The position numbers and the translations under genes are program-made. Source: Escherichia phage ST2. From it: DNA of 64,000 nucleotides. The stretch lies in sequence record OM982647; one strand, 5' to 3'. A model generated the notes under the pieces. The model saw only the letters and a program-made list of their open reading frames with translations, was not told the DNA's origin and ran no database searches. Position 1 is the first letter of the stretch. Each line of letters opens with the position of its first letter. Shown here in pieces: positions 3,896 to 17,784 of the stretch.

Positions 3896-3930
3896 TGATA
3901 GTATCACACATCCATGTGTTTGTAAACTAT
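3896..3930 (-). promoter_or_regulatory. T4-type early promoter
   Basis: Minus strand GTTTACA, 18-nt spacer, GATACTAT -10. Confidence 0.5.
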
Positions 3931-10221: not shown

Positions 10222-10256
10222 GTCTATAATAACATAACCTGTACCAAAGTAAACAT
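10222..10256 (-). promoter_or_regulatory. T4-type early promoter with 8-bp inverted repeat flanking -10
   Basis: GTTTAC, 17-nt spacer, TATTAT; GGTACAGG/CCTGTACC arms at 10215..10245. Confidence 0.5.
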
Positions 10257-10258
10257 TT

Positions 10259-10630
10259 TTATTTGATTTTTGTCCACTTAGCTGAATCAATAACACCTTT
10301 TGCTTTAATCTTCTCAATTAATGACTCTGCGCGATTTCTGGCGTTTTCGTACCATACAACATCTTCAGAGTAACCAGTTTCTTCATCTTCGTAAGTTTTA
10401 GAACGAATACAGCCGTAAACTGTAGAATTCAGGCGGTAAATTTCACCAGTGAAAAAGTTTTCGATTTCGATATGATAACAAAAATCGTCTGAAGGGCCAT
10501 CAGGAGTTGTACAATAAACCACATCACCTTGAACTGAACGAACCATCCACTGTAACTCGTTAACAACTTGAGATTTATATCCATCATGGTCGCGGCATTT
10601 AATTGTAGCATTTAAATTGATAGTGTTCAT
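10259..10630 (-). CDS. Hypothetical protein
   Basis: 123-aa ORF with own early promoter. Confidence 0.45.
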   Translation of the reverse strand: MNTINLNATIKCRDHDGYKSQVVNELQWMVRSVQGDVVYCTTPDGPSDDFCYHIEIENFFTGEIYRLNSTVYGCIRSKTYEDEETGYSEDVVWYENARNRAESLIEKIKAKGVIDSAKWTKIK

Positions 10631-10664
10631 TTTATTCTCCGGTTGTTTTATTGATTAGGTGGTA

Positions 10665-10702
10665 CAAGTCTATAGTAACACATCCTACAGGAGAGTAAAC
10701 AT
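10665..10702 (-). promoter_or_regulatory. T4-type early promoter
   Basis: GTTTAC (10695..10700 revcomp), -10 TACTATAG. Confidence 0.45.
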
Positions 10703-10736
10703 CTTTTTAAACTTTTTCTGCCCTAAACGCACAAAA

Positions 10737-10754
10737 GGGAGACCGAAGTCTCCC
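10737..10754 (-). terminator. UUCG-tetraloop intrinsic terminator
   Basis: GGGAGAC-CGAA-GTCTCCC, followed by UUUU on transcript. Confidence 0.6.
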
Positions 10755-10759
10755 TAAAA

Positions 10760-10939
10760 TTATGCAACAACCTTTCCAAAACGAGAAGCATCATCTCGAA
10801 GAACTGCACGTGCTCTGCGCATGATCTTCTCAACTGTTTGATTAATACGAGAGTTCGACCCACGCTTGTATCCAGCGCGTTTAGAGGTACCATCAACTTT
10901 CTTTTCAACTGCTTTCTTTGCTTTAGCTTGTTTTGCCAT
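10760..10939 (-). CDS. Small basic protein, 59 aa (MAKQAKAKKAVEKK...), absent from ORF track
   Basis: ATG..TAA ORF translated by hand; lies between long non-coding stretch and strong terminator; track instead lists overlapping TTG-start ORF in another frame. Confidence 0.4.
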   Translation of the reverse strand: MAKQAKAKKAVEKKVDGTSKRAGYKRGSNSRINQTVEKIMRRARAVLRDDASRFGKVVA

Positions 10940-11202
10940 TATAAATTCTCTTTAAATGAAAATGCAGGACTTATTGACATTGCCTGCGCAAGCCCTCAAG
11001 GGGAACATAGGTTTTGAATATTTACCGACAGGATAACCATAAACCCGTCATCATACCAACCACGACTTAGACAGATAACCTTTTTCTGACGCGTGATAGT
11101 ACAAAATACATTCAAGAGGTACACCGTAAAACTGCCGGGGTCTTAAAACTATAATGATTCGCAAATCATTAATCAGACAGTTCGACGGCTCCTCGATTTA
11201 AC

Positions 11203-11451
11203 TTACTTCAGGGTAATAACAAAATGACGTACTGCTTTACGAGCCGCAGAAGCCAAAGGCTTAGCATATTTCAGTTCATCTTTTGCTTCCAGTTCAGAGG
11301 CCAATACAGCTTGGGCAGGGTTCAGATGTTTGAAATAACGCAGGATTTCCAATGCTTCGGCTTCAACATCAATAGATGCACCGTAGTTTTCGTGACCATT
11401 ATTCCATGCGTTTCGTTGCAGTTCAAGAGCGTGTTGTAATTGTTTAATCAT
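11203..11451 (-). CDS. rIII: rIII lysis-inhibition accessory protein
   Basis: 82 aa as in T4; position downstream of gene 31. Confidence 0.75.
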   Translation of the reverse strand: MIKQLQHALELQRNAWNNGHENYGASIDVEAEALEILRYFKHLNPAQAVLASELEAKDELKYAKPLASAARKAVRHFVITLK

Positions 11452-11567
11452 TTTAAATTCTCAATTCGAGATAATATTTAGTAGCCACGTTCGTCTGAAT
11501 TTCACCTTCTTTCGACAAGTCTCTCAGTTGTAGGCTACCGCTTAGAAGAGTGTTCTCTTCATATAGT

Positions 11568-11575
11568 TATTTATA
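11568..11575 (-). promoter_or_regulatory. Late promoter core TATAAATA
   Basis: Exact TATAAATA on minus strand immediately after gene 31 stop, about 115 nt upstream of rIII. Confidence 0.4.
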
Positions 11576-11908
11576 TCACTTATAAAGACACGGAATAGCT
11601 TTATAGTGGCATGTTACGAATTTCTGTTTAATTTCTTTAGGTTGTTTAAGTCCCAAAGCCACAAATGGATGTGGAACATTTCGAATTTGTCCAACTGGTA
11701 GTGGAGTCAAATCACCGACTTCAACAAAACCTTCAGGAACATCAGGACCTACAGAATGAACTACACATAGTTCAGGAACTTCACCTTGAACACGTTTACC
11801 AATCACAAGTCCTGATTCGGTAACTTCTTCATCACCTGCTTGAGCGGGTTCAGAAACCAGAATAACATATTCACCAACAGCACGAATTGGGAGTTGTACT
11901 TCAGACAT
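11576..11908 (-). CDS. 31: GroES-like co-chaperonin for capsid protein folding
   Basis: 110 aa; [34 protein letters not shown]... near-identical to T4 gp31 as I recall it. Confidence 0.9.
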
Positions 11909-12274: not shown

Positions 12275-12845
12275 AAAAGTTTCGAATTTGTTCCCAATTC
12301 AGAGAACGAAGATTATTACGAGAGTACTGAATTACTTCAATACCAGCTTGTTTTAGAATGTCGGCCCAATTTTCAGGAGATCTGTCATATAATTCTGCGT
12401 ATACAACCTTTTTAATACCTGACTGCGTAATAGCTTTAGTGCAATCAGGACACGGAGAAAGCGTAGTATATAACGTAGCACCTTCAATAGAATTACCTTT
12501 ACGAGCTGCAAACAAAATTGCATTCAATTCCGCATGGATTTCATTATTAGCAGACCATGCACTATGAGCGGCCCGATGTTCTTTAGCCAAAACAAAATTA
12601 TCCACCCGTCCAAATGCTGTAGTGCCTTCTTTATGCCCAGCAACGATGACCGGGCTTGGTTTATTCTTCAACCAACCGTTTTCGGATGCATGTTCGCAAC
12701 AGTTTGTACCACCTGAAGGAGAGCCATTATAACCTGTAGAAATAATGCGTCCATCTTTTTCAATGACGGCACCAACTTTCCATGAACAACATTTTGATTC
12801 TTGAGAAATCAGATATGCAATCTGAAGGTATGTGCTAGCTTTCAT
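12264..12845 (-). CDS. cd: dCMP deaminase
   Basis: 193 aa; zinc-binding CxxC / HAE motifs; N-terminus MKASTYLQIAYLISQESKCCSWKVGAVIEK as in T4. Confidence 0.9.
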   Translation of the reverse strand: MKASTYLQIAYLISQESKCCSWKVGAVIEKDGRIISTGYNGSPSGGTNCCEHASENGWLKNKPSPVIVAGHKEGTTAFGRVDNFVLAKEHRAAHSAWSANNEIHAELNAILFAARKGNSIEGATLYTTLSPCPDCTKAITQSGIKKVVYAELYDRSPENWADILKQAGIEVIQYSRNNLRSLNWEQIRNFCGE

Positions 12846-13837
12846 TATTGAACCTTATTAATATAAGTTAACAGCTCTTTAGTTTGTTCCCAACTGATGC
12901 ACGCATCGGTAATGGAAACGCCATAGGACATATTATCAGAAATTTTTTGATTTCCTTCATGTAGGAATGATTCTATCATAATTCCTTTGACCAAATCATT
13001 AGCTGCTAAATTTTTACCAATACCAATTTGATTGCTATAATGCCCATCAGCGTTTGCATGGCTACAGTCAACCATTACATAATGATTCAGACCTACTGCC
13101 CTTGCTTTGTTAGAAGCTTCTTGAATATCAGAAGAATGATAGTTCGGGCCGTTGGTCCCGCCACGCAATACGATATGCGTATTCTGATTACCTTCAGCTT
13201 CAACAATGCCTACAGTACCATCGACGTCCATACCCATATACCGATGAGGCCAGGCGGCACTATACATCGCGTCTGTAGCTACTTTAATAGAACCATTGGT
13301 TGCGTTCTTGAAGCCTACGCACATCGGTAGACCTGAAGCAATTTCACGATGTGTCTGACTTTCAGTCGTACGGGCGCCAATAGCAACCCATGAGAAAATA
13401 CCAGAAAGATACTTAATCGTGAATGGGTCTAATACTTCAGTTGCTAATGGAAGTCCCATACGTAGAAGTTTACGACACAATGTTCGTGCAACTATAAGAC
13501 CGTGGTTCATATCAAAACTTCCGTCAAGATATGGATCATTTACAAGACCTTTCCAACCTACGGTAGTTCGAGGCTTTTCAAAATAAACGCGCATCACTAA
13601 CAGAACATTAGGAAGACGAGTTTGAAGTTCAGCCAGACGTTTGCCGTATTCAACAGCAGCAATAGGGTCATGAATTGAACAAGGACCTACAACAATAAGT
13701 TTGCGTGGGTCTTCACCATTCATAATCGAATTAACTTGTTCGCGATGAGAAGCCACTTGTGATGCGTAAGCTTCCGACAAAGGAATAATCTCAGCCAGTT
13801 CTTTTGGAGAAATAAGTTTTCCGACGACAGGTAACAT
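12845..13837 (-). CDS. Class I DAHP synthase (3-deoxy-7-phosphoheptulonate synthase, AroG/F/H-like)
   Basis: 330 aa; FEKPRTTVGWKG, GARTTESQ, VMVDCSHAN, IMIESFLHEGNQ motifs, alignable by eye along its length to E. coli AroG. Confidence 0.8.
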   Translation of the reverse strand: MLPVVGKLISPKELAEIIPLSEAYASQVASHREQVNSIMNGEDPRKLIVVGPCSIHDPIAAVEYGKRLAELQTRLPNVLLVMRVYFEKPRTTVGWKGLVNDPYLDGSFDMNHGLIVARTLCRKLLRMGLPLATEVLDPFTIKYLSGIFSWVAIGARTTESQTHREIASGLPMCVGFKNATNGSIKVATDAMYSAAWPHRYMGMDVDGTVGIVEAEGNQNTHIVLRGGTNGPNYHSSDIQEASNKARAVGLNHYVMVDCSHANADGHYSNQIGIGKNLAANDLVKGIMIESFLHEGNQKISDNMSYGVSITDACISWEQTKELLTYINKVQ

Positions 13838-14220: not shown

Positions 14221-14255
14221 GTCATAGTATCACAACTCCACCATGTTGTAAACTT
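14221..14255 (-). promoter_or_regulatory. T4-type early promoter
   Basis: GTTTACA then GTGATACTATG. Confidence 0.45.
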
Positions 14256-17749: not shown

Positions 17750-17784
17750 AGCCATAGTAACACCTTCCTTGGTGTTTGTAAACC
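17750..17784 (-). promoter_or_regulatory. T4-type early promoter
   Basis: GTTTACA then GTGTTACTATGG. Confidence 0.45.

What the first reader, a model, noticed from the sequence alone, without database searches (positions are those of the whole stretch)
10760..10939. Unannotated 59-aa highly basic protein gene (MAKQAKAKKAVEKK...) with its own terminator
Hand translation gives an ATG-to-TAA ORF of 59 aa, rich in Lys/Arg, followed immediately by a GGGAGAC-UUCG-GUCUCCC terminator. The ORF track missed it (length cutoff) and lists an overlapping TTG-start ORF in another frame instead. Its composition suggests nucleic-acid binding.
Basis: seen in the sequence. Interest (0 to 1): 0.45.

Follow-up and report, generated by a model that had tools for sequence, protein, structure and literature searches.

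The report
Phage T4 gene 30.9 ortholog
The 59-residue basic ORF is a real, conserved gene: the RB69-type copy of phage T4 gene 30.9, already annotated as a hypothetical protein in over a thousand T4-like phage genomes, so it is a correct catch but not a new one, and its function is still unknown.

Summary
On the minus strand, 10939..10760 is an ATG-to-TAA ORF of 59 aa. A GGGAGAC-UUCG-GUCUCCC hairpin with a U-tract starts 5 nt after the stop codon. Codon usage, substitution pattern and stop codons in relatives all favour this frame over the overlapping TTG ORF.

The gene is not new. The window is an RB69-like Mosigvirus. The protein is 100% identical to RB69 gp30.9 (NP_861910.1) and about 92% identical to T4 gp30.9 (NP_049823.1). 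It lies in the conserved order rIII, 30.9, 30.8. tblastn finds it in 1006 phage records. It belongs to PHROG 1427 (unknown function) and has no Pfam, NCBIfam, PADLOC or PDB relative.

The terminator stem covaries across relatives. It is followed by a T4-type early promoter for gene 30.8, an arrangement that resembles a PeSL cassette.

Published T4 omics class the 30.9 transcript as early; the protein was not detected.

The protein has pI 11.4. It has a low-confidence Lys/Ala-rich tail, a nearly invariant SKRAGYKRxSNxRI motif and a confident amphipathic helix. My best inference, at about 40%, is a nucleic-acid-binding early protein, more likely RNA than DNA.

In passing: the rIII-30.9 spacer carries a covarying hairpin motif (window 11005-11059). 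In many relatives, but not here, it also carries a ~140-nt seven-helix RNA that matches no Rfam family.

The parts
10760..10939 (-). CDS, ortholog of T4 gene 30.9 (59 aa, ATG..TAA); small basic protein of unknown function
   Evidence: ORF list. Identical to RB69 gp30.9. PHROG 1427, E 2.4e-31. Codon usage +0.47 bits/codon. pN below pS and excess third-position variation.
10947..10953 (-). Shine-Dalgarno-like AAAGAGA, 7 nt before the ATG; contains no GGAG (RegB) motif
   Evidence: Read from the sequence. The upstream 45 nt are conserved in Tequatrovirus and Mosigvirus relatives. RegB consensus taken from PMC1702504.
10952..10954 (-). In-frame TAA 15 nt upstream of the ATG; fixes the start at MAKQ. 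In T4 a 1-nt indel opens this frame, which produced the 97-aa UniProt model
   Evidence: Sequence. P0005, the 97-aa T4 entry, and the alignment showing that N-terminal extensions are not conserved.
10730..10755 (-). Intrinsic-terminator-like hairpin (A)GGGAGAC-UUCG-GUCUCCC(U) plus U-tract UUUUGUG; presumed 3' end of the rIII-30.9 transcription unit
   Evidence: Fold. A hairpin with a different but complementary stem sequence sits at the same place in nearly all relatives. Annotated as a terminator in phage PhAPEC2.
10672..10699 (-). T4-type early promoter TTTACT-N16-TACTAT for the next gene, 30.8; with the terminator it forms a PeSL-like stem-loop/early-promoter pair
   Evidence: The pattern TTTACW-N15-18-TAYWAT matches 14 times in the window against 1.06 expected, 13 of them on the minus strand. 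Consensus from PMC4122927.
10940..11202 (-). 263-nt non-coding spacer between rIII and 30.9; probable 5' leader of 30.9 on transcripts that start upstream of rIII
   Evidence: A gap of about 90-420 nt lies upstream of 30.9 in all 40 relatives with upstream sequence, T4 included; the upstream ORF is rIII in about 33 of them. No T4-type early promoter match inside it. No Rfam match.
11005..11059 (-). Conserved hairpin motif UAUGAUG-[stem]-GUUnnnGGUUAUC-[stem]-CGUWAAA inside the spacer
   Evidence: Covariation: pair 13-35 is UA 12, AU 9, GC 1; pair 14-34 is CG 16, GC 6; 0 of 500 shuffles reach the observed score. The covariance model finds exactly one copy per locus in 40 of 42 sources, always in the sense orientation, and it is unique in the 64-kb window.
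11203..11451 (-). rIII (82 aa), the upstream cistron; 30.9 is probably co-transcribed with it
   Evidence: Annotation of the orthologous region in RB69, PhAPEC2 and T4. Conserved synteny. An early-like promoter (11499..11471) and a late TATAAATA (11575..11568) lie upstream of rIII.

Best explanation
SHOWN: the feature is the RB69-type ortholog of bacteriophage T4 gene 30.9 (old name 31.-2). It is a genuine gene under purifying selection and encodes a 59-aa, 6.6-kDa protein of pI 11.4. It sits in the conserved order gene 31, rIII, spacer, 30.9, terminator, early promoter, 30.8, all on the minus strand. INFERRED (expression): no recognisable T4-type promoter lies in the 263-nt spacer. The gene is therefore most likely read from the promoters upstream of rIII, as the distal cistron of an rIII-30.9 mRNA that ends at the GGGAGAC-UUCG-GUCUCCC hairpin. 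Gene 30.8 then restarts from its own early promoter. The 30.9 ribosome-binding site lacks GGAG, whereas the 30.8 site is a perfect RegB target (GGAGAAUAAAA). So 30.9 should escape the RegB-mediated shut-off that hits its neighbour. INFERRED (mechanism, about 40%): gp30.9 is a nucleic-acid-binding early protein, more likely binding RNA or the ribosome than DNA. In this reading the low-confidence Lys/Ala-rich N-terminus and the nearly invariant SKRAGYKRxSNxRI segment contact the phosphate backbone and fold on binding. The C-terminal amphipathic helix (residues 30-54) presents an Arg/Lys face, and its hydrophobic face is buried by self-association or docking on a partner. The biochemical function has never been established.
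For: Identity: 96.8-97.7% DNA identity to RB69-like phages. RB69 and T4 annotate the ortholog as gp30.9. The protein is identical to the RB69 one. PHROG 1427, E 2.4e-31. Real gene. It is as conserved as rIII and the gene 31 co-chaperonin across genera. Distribution: 1006 phage records; 65 clusters among 5.8 billion proteins; only 18 representatives among 1.84 billion, and apart from two fragments and one 617-aa repetitive protein taken as a false positive, all are small basic proteins that share the SKRAGYKR motif or a close variant. Expression: the T4 30.9 transcript is classed 'early' and the protein was not detected by MS (PMC9697503, Table S2). This is expected for a K/R-rich 58-mer cut by trypsin. 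A 2003 study examined rIII and 30.9 expression in vivo (cited in PMC9409239). Terminator and promoter. RegB consensus. Mechanism: pI 11.35, net charge +12.5, hydrophobic moment up to 0.77 for residues 31-48. AF2 gives a confident helix at 30-54 (pLDDT 85-90) and a low-confidence basic N-terminal half. Invariant residues are S19, K20, A22, K25, R26, N29, R42 and V46. A covarying RNA hairpin always accompanies the gene in its leader.
Against: No homology or fold evidence links the protein to any nucleic-acid-binding family. Pfam, NCBIfam, PADLOC, PDB sequence search and PDB Foldseek are all empty or non-significant. High positive charge is also typical of membrane-active peptides and of inhibitors that bind acidic protein surfaces. 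Co-transcription with rIII is inferred only from the absence of a promoter match. A weak early-like site in the spacer (GTGTAC-N16-TACTAT, about 11093-11120, read by eye) cannot be excluded, although T4 lacks it. The U-tract is short (4 U), and the simple scanner did not call a terminator.
Confidence: 0.8

Rival explanations
1. gp30.9 is a small protein-binding early effector (host take-over or anti-defence). Its amphipathic helix docks on a host protein and its basic tail binds an acidic surface, as several small T4 early proteins do (AsiA, Dmd and Arn are analogies from general knowledge).
For: Early transcript class in T4. Location among small early genes of unknown function (30.1-30.9) that are separated by stem-loop/early-promoter cassettes typical of adaptive regions. 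A strongly amphipathic helix whose hydrophobic face must be buried. Conservation across phages of many Enterobacterales hosts, which fits a conserved host target.
Against: No match to any PADLOC model. No known partner. The most conserved segment, SKRAGYKRxSNxRI, is polar, basic and predicted with low confidence, which looks more like an RNA- or DNA-contacting arm than a protein interface.
Confidence: 0.3
2. gp30.9 is a membrane-active cationic amphipathic peptide that acts with its neighbour rIII in lysis timing or envelope events.
For: It is always adjacent to rIII and probably co-transcribed with it. Net charge +12.5 and helix hydrophobic moment 0.66-0.77.
Against: Mean hydrophobicity is low (-0.35 to -0.5), so the helix falls just below the surface-seeking region of an Eisenberg plot (my calculation). 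There is no transmembrane segment or signal sequence. The invariant motif lies outside the helix. T4-type phages already encode holin, antiholins and spanins (general knowledge).
Confidence: 0.1
3. gp30.9 is a packaged internal head protein that neutralises DNA charge in the capsid.
For: It is very basic. The T4 internal-protein genes ipII and ipIII are also classed as early transcripts.
Against: No late promoter (TATAAATA) lies directly upstream. There is no conserved capsid-targeting N-terminus or L/I-x-E prohead-protease site (the region AVEKK is variable). The protein was not detected in the T4 proteome.
Confidence: 0.03
4. The 59-aa ORF is a chance ORF, and the overlapping TTG ORF (10723..10908) or the plus-strand ORF (10838..11017) is the real gene.
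For: Both alternative ORFs are open in this window and in the closest relatives.
Against: Codon-usage scores are -0.37 and -0.19 bits/codon, typical of off-frames, against +0.47 for the 59-aa frame. Stops interrupt the TTG frame in 29 of 37 relatives and the antisense frame in 18 of 37. Neither matches any PHROG family, and their only Pfam hit is non-significant.
Confidence: 0.01

Closest known systems
RB69 gp30.9 (NP_861910.1, RB69p220) and T4 gp30.9 (NP_049823.1, T4p212; synonym 31.-2; listed under UniProt P17310 in PMC9697503 Table S2)
   Same: Protein 100% identical to RB69 gp30.9 and about 92% identical to T4 gp30.9. Same length (59 and 58 aa). Same position between rIII and 30.8. Same terminator hairpin position.
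   Different: Against T4: a one-residue indel (KKVDGTS against KKVGDS) and the C-terminal tripeptide (VVA against QKA). The T4 spacer is 244 nt and lacks a 51-nt block. A UniProt-derived T4 entry carries a 97-aa N-terminally extended form ('uncharacterized 11.1 kDa protein in Gp30-rIII intergenic region'). An in-frame stop in this window shows that this extension is not conserved.
PHROG 1427 (phage protein family, unknown function)
   Same: Full-length match, E 2.4e-31, residues 1-57 on profile positions 11-66 of 75.
   Different: None; the family carries no functional annotation.
PeSL cassettes (promoter-early stem-loops) of T4-type phages (Arbiol et al. 2010; Comeau et al. 2014, PMC4122927)
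   Same: A GC-rich stem-loop immediately followed by an early promoter that fits the T4/PST consensus TTTACW...TAYWAT. It lies between small genes of a plastic region.
   Different: The spacer is 16 nt rather than the nominal 17. I did not test whether this cassette marks an indel or recombination boundary. The stem here (GGGAGAC/GTCTCCC) is one of several variants seen in relatives.
Arginine-rich-motif RNA-binding peptides such as lambda N with boxB (analogy recalled from general knowledge, not tested)
   Same: A small, very basic, largely unstructured early phage protein encoded next to a conserved RNA hairpin with an invariant loop.
   Different: No sequence similarity. No evidence that gp30.9 binds the hairpin. 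No antitermination context is known in T4.

Membership tests
T4 gp30.9 / PHROG 1427 | Significant full-length sequence similarity to the family | tested here: met
   PHROG 1427 E 2.4e-31; 100% identity to RB69 gp30.9 and about 92% to T4 gp30.9.
T4 gp30.9 / PHROG 1427 | Conserved genomic position downstream of rIII and upstream of 30.8, on the same strand | tested here: met
   Window order 31, rIII, 30.9, 30.8. Same order in RB69, PhAPEC2 and T4. rIII is the upstream ORF in most of the 40 metagenomic loci.
T4 gp30.9 / PHROG 1427 | Core motif SKRAGYKRxSNxRI followed by the helix (V/I)EKIMRRARAVLRDD | tested here: met
   Alignment A1; invariant S19, K20, A22, K25, R26, N29, R42 and V46 are all present.
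Intrinsic (Rho-independent) terminator | GC-rich hairpin directly followed by a U-tract, at the 3' end of a gene | tested here: inconclusive
   An 8-bp stem (5 G-C pairs) with a UUCG loop; centroid -14.1 kcal/mol. The U-tract is only UUUU then GUGCGUUU, and the consensus scanner did not call it. The equivalent element is annotated as a terminator in PhAPEC2.
Intrinsic (Rho-independent) terminator | Structure conserved through compensatory changes in relatives | tested here: met
   Stems GGGAGAC/GTCTCCC, GGACTCC/GGAGTCC, GGGAACC/GGTTCCC and GGGGCTCC/GGAGCCCC, each followed by T-runs, at the same position.
Intrinsic (Rho-independent) terminator | Transcripts actually end there | not testable with these tools
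   Needs Term-seq, Northern blots or in vitro transcription.
PeSL (promoter-early stem-loop) cassette | Stem-loop followed within a few tens of nt by an early promoter TTTACW-N17-TAYWAT | tested here: met
   Hairpin at 10755..10736. TTTACT-N16-TACTAT at 10699..10672. The pattern is 13-fold enriched in the window (14 matches against 1.06 expected). Consensus.
PeSL (promoter-early stem-loop) cassette | Association with indel or shuffling boundaries between close relatives | not tested
   Downstream genes differ among relatives (30.8 is absent or replaced in some loci), but boundaries were not mapped.
Known nucleic-acid-binding protein families (Pfam, PDB) | Sequence or fold match to a characterised DNA- or RNA-binding domain | tested here: not met
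   No Pfam hit above threshold. Best PDB sequence hit is SlmA at E 0.13, not significant. Foldseek against PDB gives 0 hits. Nothing significant in NCBIfam.

The most novel reading that the evidence does not exclude
gp30.9 is the protein partner of the conserved structured RNA in its own leader. That RNA is the covarying hairpin motif present in 40 of 42 sources searched (the window and 41 related loci) and, in about half of the relatives, a ~140-nt seven-helix RNA with no Rfam family. Together they would form a previously undescribed phage RNA-protein regulatory module, for example autoregulation, mRNA stabilisation, or a ribosome- or RNA-targeting complex.
Probability: 0.1. Interest if true: 0.6.

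Novelty: already known. Interest (0 to 1): 0.15.

Why it matters
As a discovery it matters little, because the gene has been in the T4 and RB69 annotations for decades. It does show that an ORF-length cutoff of about 60 aa drops real, strongly conserved phage genes and can substitute a spurious overlapping ORF. gp30.9 also remains one of the conserved 'dark matter' genes of T4-type phages. It is present in more than 1000 sequenced genomes, including many therapy candidates, and is as conserved as rIII and the gene 31 co-chaperonin, yet has no known function. The structured RNA elements next to it give a concrete starting point for experiments.

Tried and rejected
1. Alternative frames (TTG ORF 10723..10908 on the minus strand; plus-strand ORF 10838..11017): rejected on codon usage, stops in relatives and the absence of family hits.

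2. Longer N-terminus, as in the 97-aa T4 UniProt entry or the 68-aa Klebsiella-phage models: rejected. An in-frame TAA lies 15 nt upstream here, and the extensions are not conserved.

3. Remote homology led nowhere. Pfam, NCBIfam, PADLOC, a PDB profile search, Foldseek against PDB and a profile search of 1.84 billion representatives gave nothing beyond small phage homologs. The 617-aa hit P0072 is a low-complexity repeat protein and a false positive. The SlmA similarity (E 0.13) is not significant.

4. Rfam on the whole window and on the locus: nothing real.

5. A promoter for 30.9 inside the spacer: no T4-type early, MotA-box or late consensus was found (and reading). There is only a weak GTGTAC-N16-TACTAT that T4 lacks.

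6. A short peptide starting at the conserved UAUGAUG of the spacer hairpin: rejected. The reading frame ends after 3-10 codons at different places, and the ATG is missing in some relatives.

7. Literature: ten full-text searches found no functional study of gp30.9. They gave only gene lists, an omics table, and references to Driukas & Nivinskas 2003 and Truncaite et al. 2006, neither of which is held in the library. The T4 genome review (PMC150520) is not held.

8. The ~140-nt RNA of relatives was searched for in the window with a covariance model and is absent.

Full report
OBSERVATION

It runs from ATG (10939..10937) to TAA (10762..10760) and encodes 59 aa, MAKQAKAKKAVEKKVDGTSKRAGYKRGSNSRINQTVEKIMRRARAVLRDDASRFGKVVA. 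An in-frame TAA 15 nt upstream (10954..10952) excludes a longer N-terminus. An AAAGAGA Shine-Dalgarno-like element lies 7 nt before the ATG.

Five nucleotides after the stop codon comes GGGAGAC-UUCG-GUCUCCC (10754..10737, extendable by one A-U pair), followed by UUUUGUGCGUUU. The centroid structure of the 61-nt stretch is this hairpin alone, and the fold is better than shuffles (z = -3.07). The simple terminator scanner did not report it. The likely reason is that the extra A-U pair uses up one U of an already short U-tract (my inference).

IS IT A GENE, AND IN WHICH FRAME?

Three independent tests agree.

- Codon usage. The model was trained on the 32 long ORFs of the window. The 59-aa frame scores +0.47 bits/codon. 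Real genes read in frame give 0.36 +/- 0.13, and off-frames about -0.30. The TTG ORF scores -0.37 and a plus-strand 59-aa ORF -0.19.
- Substitution pattern. In a codon alignment of 35 distinct homologous sequences (the two most divergent left out), 47 of 51 third positions vary, against 31 first and 26 second positions. pN is below pS in all but one near-identical comparison; against a T4-type copy, for example, pS is 0.23 and pN 0.08.
- Stop codons. The TTG frame is interrupted by stops in 29 of 37 relatives. Three other frames are interrupted in all 37 and the remaining antisense frame in 18 of 37.

The alternative ORFs match no PHROG family, and their only Pfam hit is non-significant. The opposite is true.

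WHAT IT IS

A 1.2-kb query around the ORF matches 756 phage records. The best are RB69-like phages at 96.8-97.7% identity, so the window comes from a Mosigvirus (T4-type, Straboviridae).

In RB69 the orthologous CDS is annotated 'gp30.9 conserved hypothetical protein' (NP_861910.1; T4 synonym 31.-2). In T4 it is gene 30.9 (NP_049823.1, 58 aa). In PhAPEC2 both the CDS and the terminator are annotated. The window protein is identical to the RB69 protein and about 92% identical to the T4 protein. It matches PHROG 1427 (unknown function) at E 2.4e-31.

tblastn finds it in 1006 of 50,697 phage records, from phages of Escherichia, Klebsiella, Shigella, Enterobacter, Yersinia, Salmonella, Serratia, Citrobacter and others. 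In the 5.8-billion-protein collection there are 65 clusters. A profile search of 1.84 billion representatives returns only 18 sequences. One is a 617-aa repetitive protein taken as a false positive, and two are fragments. The rest are small basic proteins that share the SKRAGYKR motif or a close variant. The family is thus confined to T4-type phages.

Some records name it '1,4-alpha-glucan branching enzyme'. For a 59-aa protein this is plainly an annotation error. A UniProt-derived T4 entry is 97 aa long. A 1-nt indel opens the upstream frame in T4, but that extension is closed by a stop here and is not conserved, so MAKQ is the true start.

CONTEXT AND EXPRESSION

All genes here are on the minus strand, in the order gene 31 (11576-11908), rIII (11203-11451), a 263-nt spacer, 30.9, the hairpin, and 30.8 (10259-10630).

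Upstream of rIII there is a late-promoter consensus TATAAATA (11575..11568) and a sigma-70/early-like site at 11499..11471. This agrees with the published statement that T4 rIII is served by early, middle and late promoters (PMC9409239).

Inside the spacer I found no match to the T4-type early pattern, although that pattern is 13-fold enriched in the window (14 matches against 1.06 expected; 13 on the minus strand). I therefore infer that 30.9 is the distal cistron of an rIII-30.9 mRNA that ends at the hairpin.

The hairpin recurs at the same place in nearly all relatives with different but complementary stems: GGACTCC/GGAGTCC, GGGAACC/GGTTCCC and GGGGCTCC/GGAGCCCC, each followed by T-runs. 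That is good comparative evidence for function.

About 36 nt further on lies TTTACT-N16-TACTAT (10699..10672). This fits the T4/PST PeSL promoter consensus TTTACW-N17-TAYWAT (PMC4122927). The '30.9 terminator' is therefore the stem-loop half of an arrangement that resembles a PeSL cassette, and the cassette restarts transcription for 30.8.

The 30.8 ribosome-binding site is GGAGAAUAAAA (10640..10630), identical to the consensus RegB/S1 target (PMC1702504). The 30.9 site has no GGAG. I infer that 30.9 escapes RegB inactivation.

In T4, time-resolved omics class the 30.9 transcript as early, and the protein was not detected (PMC9697503 Table S2). Non-detection is unsurprising for a K/R-rich 58-mer digested with trypsin. 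Two papers that appear to deal with this region are not in the library: Driukas & Nivinskas 2003 on rIII and 30.9 expression, and Truncaite et al. 2006 on transcription and RNA processing upstream of gene 30. I know them only from reference lists.

THE PROTEIN AND ITS LIKELY MECHANISM

gp30.9 has pI 11.35 and net charge about +12.5 (10 K, 8 R, 5 D/E). The alignment shows three parts.

- A variable Lys/Ala-rich N-terminus (residues 1-16).
- A nearly invariant polar and basic segment, S19-K-R-A-G-Y-K-R-x-S-N-x-R-I32.
- A conserved helix, residues 30-54.

AlphaFold2 with the family alignment gives mean pLDDT 68. The helix at 30-54 is confident (85-90) and the N-terminal half is not (51-57). The helix is strongly amphipathic, with hydrophobic moment up to 0.77. 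I32, V36, I39, M40, A43, V46, L47 and F54 lie on one face; R31, K38, R41, R42, R44, R48 and R53 lie on the other.

No sequence or fold relative exists in Pfam, NCBIfam, PADLOC or the PDB. Across genera the protein is about as conserved as rIII and the essential-type co-chaperonin gp31.

From these facts I commit to the following reading, at about 40%. gp30.9 is an early nucleic-acid-binding protein, more probably binding RNA or the ribosome than DNA. Its basic arm orders on binding, and its helix either self-associates or docks on a partner.

The main rival, at about 30%, is a protein-binding host take-over or anti-defence effector. A membrane-active peptide acting with rIII (about 10%) and a packaged internal protein (about 3%) are less likely, for the reasons given in the rivals section. 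None of these is shown. The function of gp30.9 is experimentally unknown.

THINGS FOUND ON THE WAY

The rIII-30.9 spacer is long (about 90-420 nt) in all relatives with upstream sequence, and it is not featureless.

First, a roughly 55-nt motif, UAUGAUG-[stem]-GUUnnnGGUUAUC-[stem]-CGUWAAA, sits at window 11005-11059 (minus strand). Its stem covaries: pair 13-35 is UA 12, AU 9, GC 1, and pair 14-34 is CG 16, GC 6. None of 500 shuffles reaches the observed covariation score, and slid controls are far lower. A covariance model finds exactly one copy in 40 of 42 sources, always upstream of 30.9 and in the sense orientation. The copy in the window is the only one in 64 kb.

Second, 20 of the 41 related loci, but not this window and not T4, carry a ~140-nt element in the same spacer. 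It has seven helices, 98% of cells are paired, and 22 of 43 pairs show compensatory changes. Shuffles give 8.6 +/- 2.0 such pairs and slid controls at most 6. Its G-U pairs fit the sense strand. It is 90-100% identical across 386 of 407 phage records of different genera, is mostly unannotated, and matches no Rfam 15 family at E <= 1.

What either element does is unknown. Their constant association with 30.9 and rIII is the basis of the 'novel case'.

VERDICT

The gene, however, is the long-known T4 gene 30.9 ortholog, so the novelty class is 'already known'. Interest is low (0.15). The residual value lies in the still-unknown function of a widely conserved small protein and in the neighbouring structured RNAs.

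Noticed in passing
window 11005-11059 (minus strand): A conserved hairpin motif lies in the rIII-30.9 spacer, with an invariant loop (GUUnnnGGUUAUC), invariant flanks and a covarying stem. There is one copy per locus in 40 of 42 sources, always in the sense orientation and upstream of 30.9, and it is unique in the 64-kb window. No Rfam match. Function unknown.
   Followed up: partly
relatives only, e.g. L008:1250-1390, L021:1236-1376, L012:1204-1353 (absent from the window and from T4): A ~140-nt seven-helix structured RNA lies in the rIII-30.9 spacer of Klebsiella, Enterobacter, Serratia and Yersinia phages and of some Escherichia T4-type phages. 98% of cells are paired and 22 of 43 pairs carry compensatory changes. 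It occurs in 407 phage records, mostly at 90-100% identity, is mostly unannotated, and has no Rfam 15 hit at E <= 1. It is a candidate new RNA family.
   Followed up: partly
window 10630-10640 (minus strand): The ribosome-binding site of gene 30.8 is GGAGAAUAAAA, identical to the published consensus RegB/S1 cleavage target (PMC1702504). The 30.9 site (AAAGAGA) has no GGAG, which suggests different post-transcriptional fates for the two neighbours.
   Followed up: no
window, 14 sites (e.g. 3898-3926, 10226-10253, 10672-10699, 14224-14252, 17754-17782): The T4-type early promoter pattern TTTACW-N15-18-TAYWAT occurs 14 times against 1.06 expected, 13 of them on the minus strand. This fits a block of leftward early transcription units.
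   Followed up: no
window 11110-11200 (minus strand), just after the rIII stop codon: A block shared with T4, RB69 and JS98-type phages folds into a long-range stem that encloses the perfect hairpin AATGATT-TGCG-AATCATT. The relatives are too close to test covariation. The whole-spacer fold is not better than shuffles (z = -0.71).
   Followed up: no
window 11568-11575 (minus strand): The late-promoter consensus TATAAATA lies directly after the gene 31 stop codon. It is followed by the hairpin GAAGAG-AACA-CTCTTC and an early-like -35/-10 pair (11499..11471) upstream of rIII.
   Followed up: no
window 12845-13837 (minus strand): A 330-aa ORF lies next to cd. The syntenic gene in phage PhAPEC2 is annotated phospho-2-dehydro-3-deoxyheptonate aldolase (DAHP synthase), and RB69 has cd.2 at that position instead. 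This would be an auxiliary metabolic gene that varies among Mosigviruses. Homology of the window ORF was not tested.
   Followed up: no
public records of 30.9 homologs (e.g. PHB12, AV112, AV116, PMBT63): Several GenBank and UniProt entries name this 59-68-aa protein '1,4-alpha-glucan (glycogen) branching enzyme', an evident propagated mis-annotation. Others use N-terminally extended starts of 68-102 aa that are not conserved.
   Followed up: partly
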